From: a virus
Length of the DNA: 41,003 bases
UHGV virus genome: UHGV-0224761
Strand: one strand, 5' to 3'
Below the pieces are notes generated by a model, which was not told the DNA's origin, ran no database searches, and was given only the letters and a program-made list of their open reading frames with translations. Numbering within the stretch: position 1 is the stretch's first letter; the number at the start of each line of letters is the position of its first letter. Positions 11,139 to 37,420 of this stretch are shown piece by piece. Position numbers and translations under genes: made by a program.

Positions 11139-11209
11139 TATTCCGCAAATCCTGCCCACTTTTTCCCACGGTTACGCTGACTCAGAGAACACCATGAGAC
11201 AGCGTAACA

Positions 11210-19195: not shown

Positions 19196-19372
19196 TGGTT
19201 TAAGGTATACAAACGCATTACCTTACCCTCTTCAGGCGCGTGTCGTGATTTTCTAACCTGTATTTAACGGGCTTTAAAATCTGCGTGAAGCGCCTTTCTC
19301 ATTTTCCCCCTGTCAGCACTTTCTGAAGTCCCGCAAAACCGGCCCCGAAAAACACCGGCTTATGCTGCCGGA

Positions 19373-32232: not shown

Positions 32233-32783
32233 CCCTGACCCCGCATCAGCGCGCCCTGTTGCAGTTACTGCCTGACGGGCTGGCATGGGACAAGCGTCCG
32301 TCATCCGTACTGGCATCATTATGTCTGGGCCTCAGTCATTCGACAGCGCGTGTATCCTGGACGGGTAAACAGCTGCTTGCCGAGCGTTTCCCTGACACGT
32401 CGCGCCTGCTGCTGGAAGACTGGGAGCGTTATCTCGGGCTTCCCGAGTGTGATATGGCCGGAGCCACCCTCACGGAGCGACAGCGTTATGCCGGAAATAA
32501 ATACCGGATGAAGCCCTCGCTGAACCGTGAATTTTATATCCGGTTTGCGGCGGAGTTTGGTTATCAGATTGACATTCAGCCCTCACCGGATTCGCAGTGG
32601 GTCAGTATTGTCACGATTAACAGTGAAACCGGCTACCGGAATATGAATGTGCTGGATGATATTCTCACGCCGCTGCGTATTTATGAAGGCGGTGCGCTGG
32701 AATGTATTCTGAACCGTTATAAGCCTGCATGGCAGACGTTTATTTACGTTTATGCAAACAGCCATGAAGAGGAGACTATTTAA
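32223..32783 (+). CDS. R: Mu R/gp48-like tail protein
   Basis: 186 aa; position immediately before the tail fibre gene. Confidence 0.55.
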
Positions 32784-33673
32784 TGTTTCATGTTGATAAT
32801 AATTCCGGCGTGGCGAATATGCCTGCGCTGGCACCGGCGCAGAGTAATACCACCACCTGGTTTACCGAAGGTGACGGACAAAAAGGTATCAGCTGGATTG
32901 GTCAGGACTGGCTGAATATTCTCCAGGCCGAACTGCTGAATATTCTGGCTGAAGCCAGTATTCAGCCGGATAAGGCGCAGTTAAACCAGCTTACGCTGTC
33001 CATTAAAGCCATTATCGCTGCGAATGCCTTTTCCCGGAAAAATAACCTGAAAGAAATTGCTGATGCCGGTGCGGAGGCCCAGCGTCTGGCCCGTGGTTAT
33101 CTTGGTCTGGGGACGCTTGCCACAAAAAACAGTCTTGGTCCCGCTGACGTTAATGCCCTGGCGAAGGATCAGAATCTCGCCGACCTGGAGAATAAGGGAA
33201 CCGCCCGTAATAATCTGGATGTTTACAGCAAAAGCGAAGGTGATAACCGTTACCTGCGCAGGGAGCAGAACGGCGCAGACATTCCGGATAAAGGGGCTTT
33301 TATCGATAACGTCGGTTTACGGGAAACGGTAAACAGGGCGGCGAATGCTCTGCCATCGGACGGCACCGCCGTTGCCGCGAATAGACTCGCCACCCCAAGA
33401 AATATTAATGGGGTTCCCTTTGACGGGACGCAGGACATAAACATCACTTCTGGTATAACACAGCAGGATGCGGATTCCCGATATATCCAGGATATCAGGC
33501 TGGGAGCAGAGAACAGGCAGGTAATGTACGGTGGGGCATATTACTCTGCGTACGGTAATGTTATGGCAGGCCTGCAGATTGACAGTAAAGTTGATGCTTC
33601 AAACGATTTTATAGCATTCAGACCCCTGCAAAAATTAGTCGGAGGTACATGGATTACGGTATCTCAGTTATAA
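32783..33673 (+). CDS. S: Tail fibre protein S: constant part fused to the variable part Sv in the present orientation
   Basis: 296 aa; the gix crossover site lies at about codon 177; the C-terminus ...[18 protein letters not shown] is paralogous to the alternative Sv' tip. Confidence 0.7.
33300..33325. promoter_or_regulatory. gix-like recombination site, left (TTATCGATAACG-TC-GGTTTACGGGAA)
   Basis: 26-bp site with dyad symmetry matching the Gin/Hin crossover-site pattern; an inverted copy lies at 34617..34642. Confidence 0.7.
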
Positions 33674-33724
33674 ATAGTCAGTAAATAATATATTTTAAAA
33701 CAGATTTATTTCCAGGAGGATTTT

Positions 33725-34246
33725 ATGGAACTAAAAAATATAACCCGTTATTATCCTGAAAATATGCCATATGGTAATAATGTTCAGTATTTCCAGAGTG
33801 AAGATGGTAAGGATTTCTACGAATCCCTGCCATTATTCACCAAAAAATATAAACTTTGCATAACACCTGACAGCGGCGTTATCTGCTCAATATCACAGGA
33901 CGCCTCGGCGCTGTATCCTGCGGGGTTTTCTGTGGTTGAGGTCGATGAACTCCCTGAAGGCACGGATATTTCAGGAAACTGGAAGTTTGATAATGGCATA
34001 ATCTCCCGTATTCCGGTTAACTACGCAAGAAAACTGGAAGCAATGCGCCAGTCATATCTTAATCAGGCATATGAAAAAATTAATGACTGGAGAACGGAGC
34101 TACAACTGGGCACCATCAGCGATGAAGACAGAGCAGCACTTACCCAATGGATGGCATACATCAGTCAGGTGAAGAAAATGGAACTACCCGCCATTAAAAC
34201 AGAAGCTGAATTTAACGCCATTAAATGGCCTGAGCAGCCACAGTAA
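33725..34246 (+). CDS. U: Tail fibre assembly protein (U-like)
   Basis: 173-aa ORF immediately after S with RBS aggagg. Confidence 0.6.
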   Translation: MELKNITRYYPENMPYGNNVQYFQSEDGKDFYESLPLFTKKYKLCITPDSGVICSISQDASALYPAGFSVVEVDELPEGTDISGNWKFDNGIISRIPVNYARKLEAMRQSYLNQAYEKINDWRTELQLGTISDEDRAALTQWMAYISQVKKMELPAIKTEAEFNAIKWPEQPQ

Positions 34247-34250
34247 TAAA

Positions 34251-34268
34251 GAAGGCCGGAAGGCCTTC
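34251..34268. terminator. Hairpin between convergent U and Sv'
   Basis: gaaggcc-ggaa-ggccttc, a 7-bp perfect stem, flanked by A/T-rich sequence. Confidence 0.5.
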
Positions 34269-34277
34269 TGAATATCA

Positions 34278-34628
34278 TTATATACTTGCAGCCGTCACCC
34301 ATGCTCCATTTAACAGATACTGCAACGGCCGGTAATACACGCCGCCGACGTTATCTGCCGTATTCTTACCGACATCCTGTACTTTAATTCCGGTAAGAAC
34401 ATTGCCGCCCCCCAGATTCAGATCCCAGCTTTCCCATGTTCCGGGCATATGTGCGGTCACCGACCCCAGTCTTATGGCGGTTACTGTTCCTGATGAGATA
34501 GTGATATCCTGCGTCCCGTCAAAGGGAACACCATTAATTGTGTGGGCATTTGCCAGCCTGTTCGCGGCAACGGCGGTGCCGTCCGATGGCAGGGCATTCG
34601 CCGCCCTGTTTACCGTTTCCCGTAAACC
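34278..34628 (-). CDS. Alternative tail fibre variable part Sv' (no own start; expressed after inversion as an Sc-Sv' fusion)
   Basis: Minus-strand frame open from the gix site to the stop at 34278, reading ...[41 protein letters not shown]...YYRPLQYLLNGAWVTAASI, collinear with Sv. Confidence 0.6.
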   Translation of the reverse strand, partial: GLRETVNRAANALPSDGTAVAANRLANAHTINGVPFDGTQDITISSGTVTAIRLGSVTAHMPGTWESWDLNLGGGNVLTGIKVQDVGKNTADNVGGVYYRPLQYLLNGAWVTAASI

Positions 34629-34642
34629 GAGGTTTTCAGGAA
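34617..34642. promoter_or_regulatory. gix-like recombination site, right (TTCCCGTAAACC-GA-GGTTTTCAGGAA)
   Basis: Close match to the Gin crossover-site pattern; inverted relative to 33300..33325. Confidence 0.7.
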
Positions 34643-34707
34643 AGCCAGGATTAACTCTGTTTTATTCCTCATGCGACAATTCCGGCTTTTTATAATAAGG
34701 AAATCGT

Positions 34708-35280
34708 ATGCTGATTGGGTATATCAGGGTGTCAACAAATGACCAGAATACGGCGCTACAAAGAAATGCGCTGGAATGTGCAGGATGTGAGCTGTTTTTC
34801 GAAGACAGAATAAGCGGTAAGACAAGGGAGCGTCCCGGACTTAAACGCGCATTAAAGCGACTCCGGCCAGGGGATACCCTGCTGGTCTGGAAACTGGATC
34901 GCCTTGGACGCAGTATGCAGCACCTTGTCCTTTTAACAGAAGAACTCCGGCAACGCGGCGTTAACTTCCGCAGCATTACGGACAATATTGATACATCCAC
35001 TCCCATGGGACGTTTCTTTTTCCATATAATGGGCGCGCTGGCGGAAATGGAGCGGGAACTCATTATTGAACGTACACGCGCGGGTCTTGCTGCTGCCCGT
35101 GCTCAGGGGCGTCATGGCGGCAGACCTCAGAAACTGACAGAGAAAGAGCGGGAGCAAATCGCCCGTTTGCTGGCTAATGGCGAGTCCCGTAAACAAATCG
35201 CACTGATATTTGATATTGGCCTTTCCACCCTTTATCGTTATTTTCCTGCCTCACCAGCTCCGTCACCAAAAGTACCGTGA
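34708..35280 (+). CDS. gin: Gin/Hin-family serine DNA invertase
   Basis: 190 aa; MLIGYIRVSTNDQ... with the catalytic serine in the RVST motif and a C-terminal HTH (...GESRKQIALIFDIGLSTLYRY...). Confidence 0.95.
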   Translation: MLIGYIRVSTNDQNTALQRNALECAGCELFFEDRISGKTRERPGLKRALKRLRPGDTLLVWKLDRLGRSMQHLVLLTEELRQRGVNFRSITDNIDTSTPMGRFFFHIMGALAEMERELIIERTRAGLAAARAQGRHGGRPQKLTEKEREQIARLLANGESRKQIALIFDIGLSTLYRYFPASPAPSPKVP

Positions 35281-35365
35281 CACTTTTTTGAATTTCCGCA
35301 AAACACATATTTTTCAGCGGTCGCTATTCTGACTCTGTTTAATTCAGAAACAGGCAGAAAAGACG

Positions 35366-37420
35366 ATGTCAGACTCCAAGTGGAAAATGCTCTCCGCCAT
35401 GCCCGGAGAGTTTTCAGTCAAGGTTGCCGGTGGCACGGTGGCATTTATTGAAAGCCCTTTCCGCCCTTCGGGTAATAAAGGGGGGATCACCTTCGCAGAC
35501 TGCGTGATCCGCTTCAGCACGAAAGAGCCATTATGGGTAATGCCGGTATCCGGTAATCCCAGTGCAGAAATCACCAGTTCAGGCGTGACTGGCATCATTC
35601 CAATCACATCTGACGTGGCCGGAACGCTCACGCCCTCCGACTGGAATGCACCGGATAACGCCGGGCCTTCCGGTAGCACGAATGGCAGCAGTTCAGAGCC
35701 GGAATATTACTTTGTTGTCATTCTCGCGGGTCAGTCAAATGGCATGGCCTACGGCGAGGGGCTGCCGTTACCGGATTCGTTTGACCGCCCGGACCCACGC
35801 ATTAAGCAACTGGCACGCCGCAGTACGGTAACGCCCAACGGTACGTCGTGTACATACAACGACATCATTCCGGCAGACCACTGCCTGCATGATGTTCAGG
35901 ATATGAGCGGGATAAACCACCCGAAAGCTGATCTGGCAAAAGGCCAGTACGGGACTGTCGGTCAGGGGTTGCATATTGCCAAAAAACTGCTTCCCTATAT
36001 CCCACAGAATGCCGGGATACTTCTGGTGCCCTGTTGTCGTGGCGGGTCAGCATTCACCACTGGAGCCGACGGCTCATTCAGTGAGGCCAGCGGTGCTTCC
36101 GCTGATTCTTCACGCTGGGGGGCCGGTAAACCTCTGTATCAGGACCTGGTAAGCCGCACCAAAGTCGCGCTGGCGAAAAACCCGAAAAACAAACTTCTGG
36201 CTGTGGTCTGGATGCAGGGAGAGGCAGACCTTGCCTCAGGAAGCCAGCAGCATAATAGTTTATTCACGGCCATGGTTCAGCAGTTCAGAACTGACCTGGC
36301 TCCGCTTGCTGCGCAGTGCGTGAGTGGAAATGCCACCACGGTGCCGTGGATTTGCGGTGATACCACGTATTACTGGAAAAACGCTGGCACCGATAAATAT
36401 GAGGCAGTATACGGTGGCTACAAAGGCAAGGAAGCACAGAAAATTTTCTTTGTACCGTTCCTGACGGATGAGAATGGACAGAGCACGCCAACGAATGCTC
36501 CGGCGGAAGACCCGGATATTGTGGCTGTCGGGTATTACGGTGCAGCATCCCGAACCCAGGGCAGTTTTGTTTCGACACAGCGTGACAGCCATTTCAGCTC
36601 ATGGGCACGCAGGGGCGTCATTTCAGACCGTCTGGCCTCAGCTATTATGCTCCATGCAGGGCGCACGGCTGAACTGATGCGCGGGCAGACCGTGACACCA
36701 CCGGATGAGAAGCCGTCACCTGATACACCATCAAAACCGTCCACGCCACCCGCAGACACCACGACGATGAGTACGCTATTTGCTTACCGGGCATCTGAGT
36801 CTGAAGGACGGTTGACACCACAGGGTTGGGCTGCCGGAGGTGGCAAGGCTCAAATCGTGGATGATGCCGGAGCCAGCGGGGGTAAGGCAATGAAACTGAC
36901 CAAGGAAACAGGAAGAGCCCCCTGGTACCTTGAGCATGATGCTGGTAATGGTGCGGACCTGCTGGGTAAAGGTGGTCTTGTCAGTTGTCGTTTTAAACTC
37001 GATGGCGCGCTTACGGCTAATCAGTACGCACTGGCGCTGTACTGGCCGGTTTCTGCCCTGCCGCAAGGGGTTACTCTGGAAGGAAATGCCGGTCATAACC
37101 TGCTGGCATCGTTCTACGTACAGAGCGATGCCACAGACCTTAACGTGATGTATCACAAAGGAAACACGGCGCAGAACACGAAGCTGGGGTCATTCGGCGC
37201 ATTTAATAACGAATGGCATACGCTGGGCTTCCGTTTTGCCGGTAACAACAGTATTGAGGTGACGCCGGTCATTGATGGTAAGGACGGGACACCATTCATG
37301 CTGTCGCAGTCTCCGGTCGGCACGTTTACGGCAGACAAGTTGCGCGTGACCGATATCACTAAAAATGCGACTTACCCGGTACTGATTGACAGTATCGTGG
37401 TGGAAGTGAATAACGCGTAA
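35366..37420 (+). CDS. SGNH-hydrolase / sialate-O-acetylesterase-like protein (NanS-p-like) with a long C-terminal domain; prophage cargo
   Basis: 684 aa; SGNH block I ...VVILAGQSNGMAYGEG...; paralogous to the host gene fragments at both prophage junctions. Confidence 0.7.
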   Translation: MSDSKWKMLSAMPGEFSVKVAGGTVAFIESPFRPSGNKGGITFADCVIRFSTKEPLWVMPVSGNPSAEITSSGVTGIIPITSDVAGTLTPSDWNAPDNAGPSGSTNGSSSEPEYYFVVILAGQSNGMAYGEGLPLPDSFDRPDPRIKQLARRSTVTPNGTSCTYNDIIPADHCLHDVQDMSGINHPKADLAKGQYGTVGQGLHIAKKLLPYIPQNAGILLVPCCRGGSAFTTGADGSFSEASGASADSSRWGAGKPLYQDLVSRTKVALAKNPKNKLLAVVWMQGEADLASGSQQHNSLFTAMVQQFRTDLAPLAAQCVSGNATTVPWICGDTTYYWKNAGTDKYEAVYGGYKGKEAQKIFFVPFLTDENGQSTPTNAPAEDPDIVAVGYYGAASRTQGSFVSTQRDSHFSSWARRGVISDRLASAIMLHAGRTAELMRGQTVTPPDEKPSPDTPSKPSTPPADTTTMSTLFAYRASESEGRLTPQGWAAGGGKAQIVDDAGASGGKAMKLTKETGRAPWYLEHDAGNGADLLGKGGLVSCRFKLDGALTANQYALALYWPVSALPQGVTLEGNAGHNLLASFYVQSDATDLNVMYHKGNTAQNTKLGSFGAFNNEWHTLGFRFAGNNSIEVTPVIDGKDGTPFMLSQSPVGTFTADKLRVTDITKNATYPVLIDSIVVEVNNA

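What the first reader, a model, noticed from the sequence alone, without database searches (positions are those of the whole stretch)
33300..34642. Asymmetric Gin-invertible tail-fibre segment: two alternative tips but only one assembly gene
Inverted gix-like sites (TTATCGATAACG-TC-GGTTTACGGGAA and TTCCCGTAAACC-GA-GGTTTTCAGGAA) bracket a 1.3-kb segment holding Sv (plus strand), U (plus strand) and an in-frame inverted Sv' (minus strand, 34278..34628). Unlike the Mu/P1 G segment, which is Sv-U / U'-Sv', there is no U' partner: after inversion the Sc-Sv' fusion would be followed by antisense U. Either Sv' folds without a dedicated chaperone, U is expressed independently, or the alternative orientation is defective.
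Basis: partly seen in the sequence, partly recalled or inferred. Interest (0 to 1): 0.55.

Follow-up and report, generated by a model that had tools for sequence, protein, structure and literature searches.

The report
Mini Mu-type tail-fibre switch, one chaperone
A Mu-like prophage of E. coli carries a small DNA segment that a recombinase flips to swap the tip of the phage tail fibre, but unlike the textbook Mu and P1 switches it holds one fibre-assembly chaperone gene for two tips, which suggests that one chaperone serves both.

Summary
Two gix-type 26-bp sites with matching inverted cores (33300-33325, 34617-34642) lie at the outer ends of a roughly 150-bp inverted repeat. They bracket 1319 bp holding Sv (+), one tail-fibre assembly gene U (+) and an in-frame Sv' (-), with gin next door. 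There is no U' anywhere in the 41-kb window.

This is the Sp18-type Mu-like prophage family of E. coli, Shigella and Citrobacter rodentium. All 23 related loci I examined keep the one-chaperone layout, across three Sv, three U and two Sv' allele classes. Both orientations occur in public assemblies, and the Sc-Sv' state with U antisense is the commoner (24 vs 6 complete E. coli genomes; 12 vs 4 viral contigs). The unique part of Sv' is under strong purifying selection (dN/dS 0.07-0.15), so the flipped state is not defective.

Sv'-type tips in other phages are always followed by a chaperone gene, and the fibre-binding domain of U is closest to exactly those chaperones. U alleles are also shuffled against both tips. 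My best reading (about 0.5) is one generalist chaperone for both tips, expressed regardless of orientation. No promoter for U could be shown.

It is a new variant of a known kind, of moderate interest.

The parts
32783..33311 (+). Sc, the constant 5' part of tail-fibre gene S. It lies outside the invertible segment and supplies the start codon and the baseplate-proximal domain.
   Evidence: Residues 1-198 of S align with Mu S residues 1-191 (PDB 5yvq_A, E 4.9e-51 for the whole protein). Sc is 95-100% identical in most related loci.
33300..33325 (+). Left crossover site (gixL-like), TTATCGATAACG-TC-GGTTTACGGGAA, with the core TC at 33312-33313.
   Evidence: The homology between the two repeat arms ends here. 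Its core matches the inverted core of the right site. Locus L055 carries TT here and AA at the right site, a change at both cores that keeps them matched.
33305..33453 (.). Left arm of the long inverted repeat. It encodes the roughly 45-aa linker shared by Sv and Sv'.
   Evidence: 86 nt at 93% plus 50 nt at 84%; the protein alignment is.
33314..33673 (+). Sv (T1, allele class a): a 119-aa variable tip, currently fused to Sc.
   Evidence: Residues 229-294 of S align with the distal domain of Mu S, residues 435-502. Three allele classes were found among the relatives.
33674..33724 (+). AT-rich spacer of 51 nt (21.6% GC), with a strong Shine-Dalgarno sequence AGGAGG six bases before the U start codon.
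   Evidence: The spacer is 51-121 nt in the relatives. In Mu the gap is 2 nt, and in other phages it is 1-17 nt.
33725..34246 (+). U, the only tail-fibre assembly (Tfa) chaperone gene, 173 aa.
   Evidence: Pfam Caudo_TAP at E 4.8e-19. Mu U (PDB 5yvq_B) at E 4.2e-16. phrog_136 at E 4.7e-56. It is the only such ORF in the window.
34250..34269 (.). Hairpin AGAAGGCC-GGAA-GGCCTTCT between the convergent U and Sv' genes. It looks like a two-way terminator and is scored as a terminator on the - strand.
   Evidence: Every allele class has a G+C-rich hairpin at this spot.
34278..34628 (-). Sv' (T2, allele class x): a 116-aa alternative tip without its own start codon, expressed only after inversion.
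   Evidence: Its distal domain is homologous to Mu S' (8ju3), Mu S (5yvq) and a short tail fibre (9cuy, E 3.7e-10). dN/dS is 0.085 against the L027 allele.
34489..34637 (.). Right arm of the long inverted repeat.
34617..34642 (+). Right crossover site (gixR-like), TTCCCGTAAACC-GA-GGTTTTCAGGAA, with the core GA at 34629-34630.
   Evidence: It matches Mu gixR at 21 of 26 positions.
34708..35280 (+). gin: a serine DNA invertase of 190 aa, preceded by a perfect TATAAT at 34691-34696.
   Evidence: Resolvase at E 1.6e-51 and HTH_7 at E 4.9e-15. It is 74% identical to Mu Gin. Its 5' coding region is about 80% identical in DNA to that of Mu gin.

Best explanation
This is a working, miniaturised version of the Mu G-segment host-range switch.

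Gin cuts at the two gix-type sites and flips the 1319-bp segment. The constant part Sc is then joined in frame to either Sv or Sv'. Each of these is little more than a shared linker plus the roughly 70-aa distal knob that contacts the receptor.

The single chaperone U is a generalist that folds, and perhaps caps, both knobs. It therefore has to be made in both states. In the state seen in this window it is co-transcribed with S from the late promoter. In the flipped state it would come from a weak promoter that travels with the segment, in the AT-rich 3' end of Sv or the spacer. U has its own strong ribosome-binding site. The hairpin between U and Sv' would stop both convergent transcripts.

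Shown: the site anatomy, the in-frame fusion, both states in nature, conservation of the one-chaperone layout, and selection on Sv'.

Inferred: that U acts on Sv', and how U is transcribed when it is antisense to the late operon.
For: 1. The switch parts are all present and Mu-like.

2. Both states exist in public assemblies.
- The in-silico Sc-Sv' junction is found in 24 complete E. coli genomes, at 100% identity in 8 of them. The junction seen in this window is found in 6.
- Of 16 Sp18-type viral contigs, 12 have U antisense and 4 have U sense.
- Two near-identical prophage copies in one genome carry a 100% identical segment in opposite orientations.

3. The layout is selected rather than accidental.
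- All 23 related loci have exactly one chaperone gene in a 1319-1428-bp segment, despite three Sv, three U and two Sv' allele classes that are only 45-60% identical.
- A Citrobacter braakii prophage with much longer tips has the same layout.

4. Sv' is a constrained coding sequence. Its unique part has dN/dS of 0.07-0.15 at dS of 0.75-1.9. It is intact in 21 of 23 loci, and the two broken ones also have a frameshifted gin.

5. U is not tied to the neighbouring tip. The combinations (a,alpha,x), (a,gamma,y), (b,alpha,y), (b,beta,y) and (c,beta,y) all occur. The N-terminal half of U, which is the fibre-binding domain in Mu Tfa (PMC9608196), is the conserved half.

6. Sv'-type tips look like normal clients of U-like chaperones.
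- Sv' classes x and y are 46-62% identical to the fibre tips of phage POP15, phage 19-1-2, a P2-like phage and the chaperone-linked tip in Citrobacter.
- Each of these tips is followed by a chaperone gene. The gap is 1-17 nt in the three phages and 69 nt in Citrobacter.
- The N-domain of U is closest to those chaperones: POP15 40% and Citrobacter 43%, against Mu U and U' at 35%.

7. All tips end at the same conserved motif, so there is no C-terminal extension that could act as a built-in chaperone.

8. The S-U spacer is 51-121 nt and AT-rich, against 2 nt in Mu.
Against: No convincing promoter for U was found.
- The consensus scan finds none on the U strand.
- My weight-matrix scan gives only a moderate site inside Sv (TTGACA at 33579, 17-nt spacer, AACGAT), in the top 1.7% of 150-nt windows. 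The other two spacer classes score at background.
- A motif shared by three presumed late promoters of this prophage, YCCGCAAAWC, is absent from the segment.
- The three spacer classes share no clear conserved element.

The identity differences that link U to chaperones of Sv'-type tips are small (40-43% against 35%). A tail fibre that works without its chaperone has been described in another phage group (PMC10579305).
Confidence: 0.5

Rival explanations
1. Sv' fibres are made without the chaperone encoded in the segment. The knob either folds unaided or is helped in trans by chaperones of co-resident prophages. Inversion then swaps the tip and also switches the chaperone off. In Mu the chaperone stays on the fibre tip and helps bind lipopolysaccharide, so here the host-range switch would have two layers.
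For: In the flipped state U is antisense to the late operon, with a terminator-like hairpin in between. No promoter for U could be shown. Mu Tfa stays on the fibre tip and contributes to lipopolysaccharide binding (PMC8174754, PMC10579305). An Alteromonas phage fibre functions without its chaperone (PMC10579305). A lambdoid prophage record, Rac-SA53, encodes a U-like protein that is 49% identical.
Against: Every Sv'-like tip I examined elsewhere has a chaperone gene directly downstream. The N-domain of U is most similar to those chaperones. [quoted passage not shown] Relying on other prophages would be an unreliable design for a layout conserved across many strain backgrounds.
Confidence: 0.3
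2. The U-antisense state is an 'off' state. Particles made from it lack functional fibres, and the inversion acts as an on/off switch rather than a host-range switch.
For: No chaperone gene is co-oriented with Sc-Sv'. The absence of a chaperone would be expected to block fibre production by analogy with Mu (PMC8174754).
Against: The unique part of Sv' shows strong purifying selection at near-saturated synonymous divergence. It is intact wherever gin is intact. It exists in two diverged allele classes that are exchanged between lineages. This state is the majority one in assemblies, so most induced particles would be wasted.
Confidence: 0.1
3. The segment is a decaying remnant of a Mu-type segment (Sv-U / U'-Sv') that lost U' by deletion and no longer matters to the phage.
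For: The element resembles Mu with U' removed precisely, because the Sv' stop codon sits next to the U stop codon. Some copies are in degraded prophages with a frameshifted gin.
Against: The same layout recurs in 23 loci with very different alleles and in Citrobacter. Inversion is recent and ongoing. One locus has changed both crossover cores together, which keeps them matched. Sv' is under selection. DNA of the related prophage Sp18 is packaged into particles (PMC2669165).
Confidence: 0.05

Closest known systems
Phage Mu G segment with Gin (S-U / U'-S')
   Same: The recombinase is 74% identical to Mu Gin. The crossover sites are nearly the same, with a GA/TC core. A constant Sc lies outside the segment and the alternative 3' parts are fused in frame. 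Sc is 47% identical to Mu Sc. The distal knob belongs to the same domain family as Mu S and Mu S'. U is a homologue of Mu U and U' at 28-32% identity. gin lies directly to the right.
   Different: The segment is 1.3 kb instead of 3 kb. The variable parts are about 119 aa, whereas in Mu the part of S that lies inside G is about 335 aa. There is one chaperone gene instead of two. A 51-nt AT-rich spacer separates S and U, where Mu has 2 nt. The inverted repeat is about 150 bp, against 34 bp in Mu (the 34-bp figure is from PMC4406740).
Prophage Sp18 of E. coli O157:H7 Sakai and its relatives (Mu-like)
   Same: It belongs to the same prophage family, with the same one-chaperone segment. O157-type loci share Sc at 99% identity and gin at 78-81%. 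[quoted passage not shown]
   Different: This window carries other tip alleles (T1 class a and T2 class x) and U class alpha. O157-type loci carry c, y and beta. I found no published analysis of the single-chaperone layout.
Other Gin/Cin/Pin/Min tail-fibre inversion systems (P1 C segment, e14 P segment, p15B Min)
   Same: The principle is the same: a serine invertase, gix/cix-type sites, and alternative fibre 3' ends. That these named systems share it is from my own knowledge and was not tested here.
   Different: As far as I recall, those systems pair each alternative tip with its own chaperone gene. Gin-linked segments with two chaperone genes were seen here among viral contigs, for example L036, L039, L062 and L069, and in E. 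coli FDAARGOS_1059.
Citrobacter braakii ATCC 51113 prophage (locus L008)
   Same: It has one chaperone gene between two convergent tips, next to a gin homologue. The chaperone-linked tip is 46-50% identical to Sv'.
   Different: Its fibre is longer (472 aa). Its chaperone is 229 aa and carries an extra DUF4376 domain. The chaperone sits beside the Sv'-like tip rather than the Sv-like one. A third gix-like site hints at more than two configurations.

Membership tests
Gin/Hin/Cin/Pin DNA inversion systems | A small serine recombinase with an N-terminal catalytic domain and a C-terminal helix-turn-helix | tested here: met
   PF00239 at E 1.6e-51 and PF02796 at E 4.9e-15. The protein is 74% identical to Mu Gin. 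The catalytic-serine motif YIRVST is present.
Gin/Hin/Cin/Pin DNA inversion systems | Two 26-bp crossover sites in inverted orientation with identical 2-bp cores | tested here: met
   The sites are 33300-33325 (core TC) and 34617-34642 (core GA). The right site matches Mu gixR at 21 of 26 positions. Locus L055 carries a matched TT/AA change at both cores.
Gin/Hin/Cin/Pin DNA inversion systems | A Fis-dependent recombinational enhancer in cis (in Mu it lies in the 5' part of gin; this is from my own knowledge) | tested here: inconclusive
   The 5' coding region of gin is about 80% identical in DNA to that of Mu. Fis sites were not mapped and cannot be proven from sequence.
Gin/Hin/Cin/Pin DNA inversion systems | Both orientations occur in populations | tested here: met
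   24 against 6 complete E. coli genomes. 12 against 4 viral contigs. Opposite states in two prophage copies within one genome. Heterogeneity within a single culture was not tested.
Mu/P1-type tail-fibre segment (Sv-U / U'-Sv') | A constant 5' gene part outside the segment, with alternative 3' parts fused in frame by inversion | tested here: met
   In-silico inversion gives a 293-aa Sc-Sv' protein. The same protein is annotated in L001.
Mu/P1-type tail-fibre segment (Sv-U / U'-Sv') | Each alternative tip is followed by its own assembly gene (U and U') | tested here: not met
   There is only one Caudo_TAP gene in the segment and in the whole window. The same holds in 23 related loci.
Tail-fibre assembly proteins (Pfam Caudo_TAP, Mu U / lambda Tfa type) | Sequence membership, and a two-part build with a variable fibre-binding N-domain and a helical C-domain | tested here: met
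   PF02413 scores 69 bits against a cut-off of 22. Residues 18-153 align with residues 24-164 of Mu U (5yvq_B) at E 4.2e-16. The domain roles are taken from PMC9608196 and were not tested here.
Mu S-type tail fibre | An N-terminal baseplate-proximal domain and a C-terminal distal knob homologous to those of Mu S | tested here: met
   S residues 1-198 align with Mu S 1-191, and S 229-294 with Mu S 435-502. Sv' residues 50-121 align with Mu S' residues 423-488. The roughly 240-aa middle shaft of Mu S is absent.

The most novel reading that the evidence does not exclude
Flipping the segment changes two things at once: the receptor-binding knob, and whether the fibre carries a chaperone cap. Under this reading, Sc-Sv' fibres are assembled with no phage-encoded chaperone. 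A Mu-type knob could then fold unaided, and the chaperone, which in Mu itself binds lipopolysaccharide, would become a second, switchable host-range determinant.
Probability: 0.25. Interest if true: 0.65.

Novelty: new variant of a known kind. Interest (0 to 1): 0.45.

Why it matters
Tail-fibre chaperones are usually treated as partners dedicated to one fibre. That assumption complicates the engineering of phage and tailocin host range.

This is a natural, widespread switch in which one chaperone sits between two different knobs, and in which chaperone alleles are shuffled freely against at least five knob classes. It suggests that a roughly 70-aa knob can be exchanged while the chaperone is kept.

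If the flipped state instead works without the chaperone, it would be a natural example of a Mu-type fibre tip that is independent of its chaperone.

The element is also common in pathogenic E. coli, including the O157 prophage Sp18 type, where it may shape which strains these transposable prophages can reach.

Tried and rejected
1. A hidden U' gene. It is absent from the ORF list and from an HMM search of all frames of the window.

2. A sigma-70 promoter for U.
- The consensus scan finds none on the U strand.
- My own weight-matrix scan gives one moderate site in this allele class and one in Citrobacter, but only background scores in the two other spacer classes. This is inconclusive.

3. A late-activator promoter for U.
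- My recalled Mu C-site pattern TTAT-N6-ATAA gave one irrelevant hit.
- A motif I derived from three presumed late promoters of this prophage, YCCGCAAAWC, is not in the segment.

4. A leftward promoter at the gin start that could read into the segment (TTGACA, 16-nt spacer, CAGCAT on the minus strand). It scores well, but it is forced by the coding sequence of the catalytic motif. It occurs equally in Gin loci with two chaperone genes, so it says nothing specific.

5. A census of one-chaperone against two-chaperone segments among 80 Gin-linked viral contigs. My HMM missed divergent small chaperones; L036 proved to have two. The census is therefore reliable only for the Sp18-type loci.

6. The long-read-validated Mu-like inversion in Milman et al. 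2023 (CP066032.1). It turned out to be a classical two-chaperone segment, so it is not a precedent.

7. The genome-contig scan with S returned only 11 loci, of which one (L008) was informative.

8. Modelling of fibre-chaperone complexes was not attempted, because the structure tool predicts one protein at a time.

9. Papers on carotovoricin inversion (PMC100113) and on Tfa surface binding (PMC7811200) are not held in the library.
Full report
**Observation**

The window holds a complete Mu-like prophage, and the finding lies at the end of its tail-gene block. The baseplate genes match the Mu gp47 type (Pfam Baseplate_J) and the Mu gp48 family.

The inverted repeat is real. Arms 33305-33390 and 34552-34637 are 86 nt at 93% complementarity. 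They are continued by arms 33404-33453 and 34489-34538, 50 nt at 84%.

The homology stops outwards at two 26-bp sites. These are TTATCGATAACG-TC-GGTTTACGGGAA (33300-33325) and TTCCCGTAAACC-GA-GGTTTTCAGGAA (34617-34642). Their 2-bp cores are each other's complement, as an inversion reaction needs. The right site matches Mu gixR at 21 of 26 positions and has the same core.

Between the sites lie four features:
- Sv, 33314-33673 on the + strand.
- A 51-nt spacer of 21.6% G+C.
- U, 33725-34246 on the + strand.
- A G+C-rich hairpin at 34250-34269, followed by Sv', 34278-34628 on the - strand.

Sv' has no start codon of its own. gin follows at 34708-35280. Inverting the segment in silico at the cores gives an open 293-aa Sc-Sv' protein.

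A second chaperone gene does not exist. Nothing suitable is in the ORF list. An HMM built from seven chaperone proteins finds only U among all stop-to-stop frames of the 41-kb window.

**What the parts are**

S is a short relative of the Mu fibre. Residues 1-198 align with Mu S 1-191, and residues 229-294 align with the distal domain, Mu S 435-502 (PDB 5yvq_A, E 4.9e-51). The roughly 240-residue shaft of Mu S is missing.

Sv' carries the same kind of distal domain. It matches a short tail fibre (9cuy), Mu S' (8ju3) and Mu S. An alignment of all tip classes with Mu S, Mu S' and the two Citrobacter tips shows one domain pattern: SRYV..IRLG, then G.VLTG, then YYRP.Q..ING.W.T..S. Every tip ends at this motif with no extension.

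U belongs to Pfam Caudo_TAP (E 4.8e-19). It aligns with Mu U in the fibre-chaperone crystal structure 5yvq_B (E 4.2e-16). Gin is 74% identical to Mu Gin.

The element is therefore a miniature G segment. Each variable part is a shared linker, encoded by the long inverted repeat, plus one knob.

**Related sequences**

The region matches 236 of 5426 complete E. coli genomes. This is the family of prophage Sp18 of E. coli O157:H7 Sakai. The literature notes only that Sp18 has an invertible host-specificity region whose genes differ from those of Mu, and that Sp18 DNA is packaged (PMC2669165).

I extracted the segment from 23 loci: the window, six E. coli genome loci and 16 IMG/VR viral contigs. 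All 23 have one chaperone gene in a segment of 1319-1428 bp. The order is always tip, spacer (51-121 nt), U, hairpin, convergent tip.

The alleles are diverse:
- The tip beside U (T1) has three classes: a, b and c.
- U has three classes: alpha, beta and gamma.
- The tip without a chaperone (T2, which is Sv' here) has two classes: x and y.
- The unique parts of different tip classes are about 40-60% identical in protein.

A Citrobacter braakii prophage with a 472-aa fibre has the same one-chaperone layout. There the chaperone sits beside the Sv'-like tip.

A protein search shows both Sc-T1 and Sc-T2 fusion proteins in many public assemblies of E. coli and Shigella, and Sc-T2 also in Citrobacter rodentium. 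Among the best 120 cluster representatives, 44 are Sc-T2y, 8 are Sc-T2x and 23 are Sc-T1b.

**Does the segment invert?**

Yes.
- E. coli NCCP 13905 has flanks 99-100% identical to the window. Its internal 1.35 kb is 97% identical on the opposite strand. PGAP annotates a 293-aa tail protein there, followed by the chaperone gene on the other strand.
- A 701-nt query spanning the in-silico Sc-Sv' junction is covered to at least 80% in 24 complete genomes, eight of them at 100% identity. The junction seen in this window is covered in six.
- Of 16 viral contigs of this type, 12 have U antisense to Sc and 4 have it sense.
- Several genomes carry two copies of the prophage in opposite states. In one of them the flanks are 99.6-99.9% identical and the segment is 100% identical but flipped.
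- One locus carries TT and AA at the two crossover cores in place of TC and GA, so both cores have changed and still match.
- A single-base variant just inside the core travels with the tip beside U, as expected if crossover happens at the core.

The excess of the U-antisense state (36 against 10 in all) may partly reflect shared ancestry of the genomes. I do not treat it as a rate.

**Is the flipped state functional?**

The unique part of T2 is under strong purifying selection. dN/dS is 0.085 for the window against L027 at dS 1.8, and 0.07-0.15 among class y alleles at dS 0.75-1.9.

T2 is uninterrupted in 21 of 23 loci. The two exceptions also have a frameshifted gin, and one of them sits in a visibly degraded prophage.

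A sequence that can only be translated after inversion would not be conserved in this way if the flipped state were useless. This argues against the 'defective orientation' reading and against the 'decaying remnant' reading.

**Which tip does U serve?**

Three lines of evidence point to both.

First, U alleles are not bound to the neighbouring tip. The observed combinations are (a,alpha,x), (a,gamma,y), (b,alpha,y), (b,beta,y) and (c,beta,y). One locus has a recombination breakpoint in the middle of U.

Second, the conserved half of U is the N-terminal half. By analogy with Mu Tfa, this is the fibre-binding domain, while the helical C-terminal half drives trimerisation (PMC9608196). Between classes alpha and beta, non-synonymous differences are 16% in residues 1-98 and 34% in residues 99-173.

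Third, T2-type knobs are normal clients of U-like chaperones elsewhere.
- Classes x and y are 46-62% identical to the fibre tips of Pectobacterium phage POP15, Escherichia phage 19-1-2, a P2-like phage, and the chaperone-linked tip in Citrobacter.
- Each of these tips is followed by a Caudo_TAP gene. The gap is 1-17 nt in the three phages and 69 nt in Citrobacter.
- The N-domain of U is closest to just those chaperones: POP15 40% and Citrobacter 43%, against 35% for Mu U and Mu U'.
- T1 class b, by contrast, is Mu-S-like at 59% identity.

In Mu, the chaperone is reported to be required for fibre production. It stays on the tip and helps bind lipopolysaccharide (PMC8174754, PMC10579305).

**The open step**

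If U serves both tips, it must be made when it is antisense to the late operon. I could not show how.
- The consensus scan finds no sigma-70-type site on the U strand upstream of U.
- My weight-matrix scan finds a moderate site inside Sv (TTGACA at 33579, 17-nt spacer, AACGAT), in the top 1.7% of 150-nt windows.
- It finds a comparable site upstream of the Citrobacter chaperone gene, but only background scores for spacer classes b and c.
- A motif shared by the regions upstream of the lysis gene, a head gene and the gene after gin (YCCGCAAAWC at 11142, 19330 and 35295) is absent from the segment.
- A leftward promoter-like site at the gin start is forced by the coding sequence. It is equally present in loci with two chaperone genes.

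Some features are at least compatible with U being its own transcription unit. The spacer is long and AT-rich, against 2 nt between S and U in Mu. U has an independent AGGAGG ribosome-binding site. A hairpin sits between U and T2 in all classes.

**Verdict**

The other two remain.

I commit to a shared generalist chaperone that is expressed in both states, at about 0.5. The main rival, at about 0.3, is that Sv' fibres are made without the chaperone encoded in the segment, so that the switch also toggles a chaperone cap.

The element is a member of the Gin-type inversion systems. It fails one defining feature of the Mu/P1 segment type, namely a chaperone gene for each tip. I therefore file it as a new variant of a known kind.

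I found no published analysis of this layout. My search was limited to the held library.

Noticed in passing
window 35366-37420 (+): Where Mu has com and mom, directly after gin, this prophage encodes a 684-aa protein with a sialate-O-acetylesterase-type domain (SASA, E 1.5e-13) and a DUF6645 domain (E 7e-68). It matches phrog_143, a family of unknown function. It might modify a surface sugar or act at the tail.
   Followed up: partly
window 11142-11151, 19330-19339, 35295-35304 (also 8073 and 15465): The motif YCCGCAAAWC occurs upstream of the lysis gene (just after the Mor/C-type activator gene), upstream of a head-gene block, and upstream of the esterase gene after gin. It may be the late-activator site of this prophage. 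With one mismatch allowed the count (22) is only slightly above chance (14.3 expected).
   Followed up: partly
L055 4964-4965 and 6339-6340: Both crossover cores are changed together, TC to TT on the left and GA to AA on the right, so the two sites still match. This is what continued selection for inversion, or repair after a mismatched exchange, would produce.
   Followed up: partly
L008 5819-5852, 7780-7856 and 8190-8223: The Citrobacter braakii relative has a third gix-like repeat close to gin, so its segment may adopt more than two configurations, like a small shufflon.
   Followed up: no
E. coli genomes and IMG/VR loci: The state with U antisense to the fibre gene is about 3.6 times more frequent in assemblies than the state in this window (36 against 10). 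The genomes are not independent, and the cause is unknown. It could be unequal inversion rates, selection in lysogens, or sampling.
   Followed up: partly
E. coli DLI.5a, TOE17, AST46, CI5; IMG genome 2617271340 (L042 and L045): Several genomes carry two copies of this transposable prophage, and the two copies are in opposite orientations of the segment.
   Followed up: partly
L004 2443-2964 (U gene of E. coli STEC2018-553): A recombination breakpoint lies inside U at about codon 45. Upstream of it, the locus is identical to the window (Sv, spacer and the start of U). Downstream, the rest of U, the hairpin and Sv' come from another lineage.
   Followed up: partly
window 34708-34742 (- strand): The antisense strand of the gin start reads TTGACA, 16-nt spacer, CAGCAT, a promoter-like site pointing into the invertible segment. 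It is produced by the codons of the catalytic motif and is present in nearly all Gin-family genes examined. It is therefore either a coincidence or a general, undescribed feature.
   Followed up: partly
The constant part is evidently a widely reused adaptor.
   Followed up: no
window 33454-34246: The unique part of Sv, the spacer and U are markedly poorer in G+C (44.5%, 21.6% and 42.5%) than Sc, Sv' and gin (51-52%) and the baseplate genes (58%). This suggests that the Sv-U block was acquired from elsewhere.
   Followed up: no
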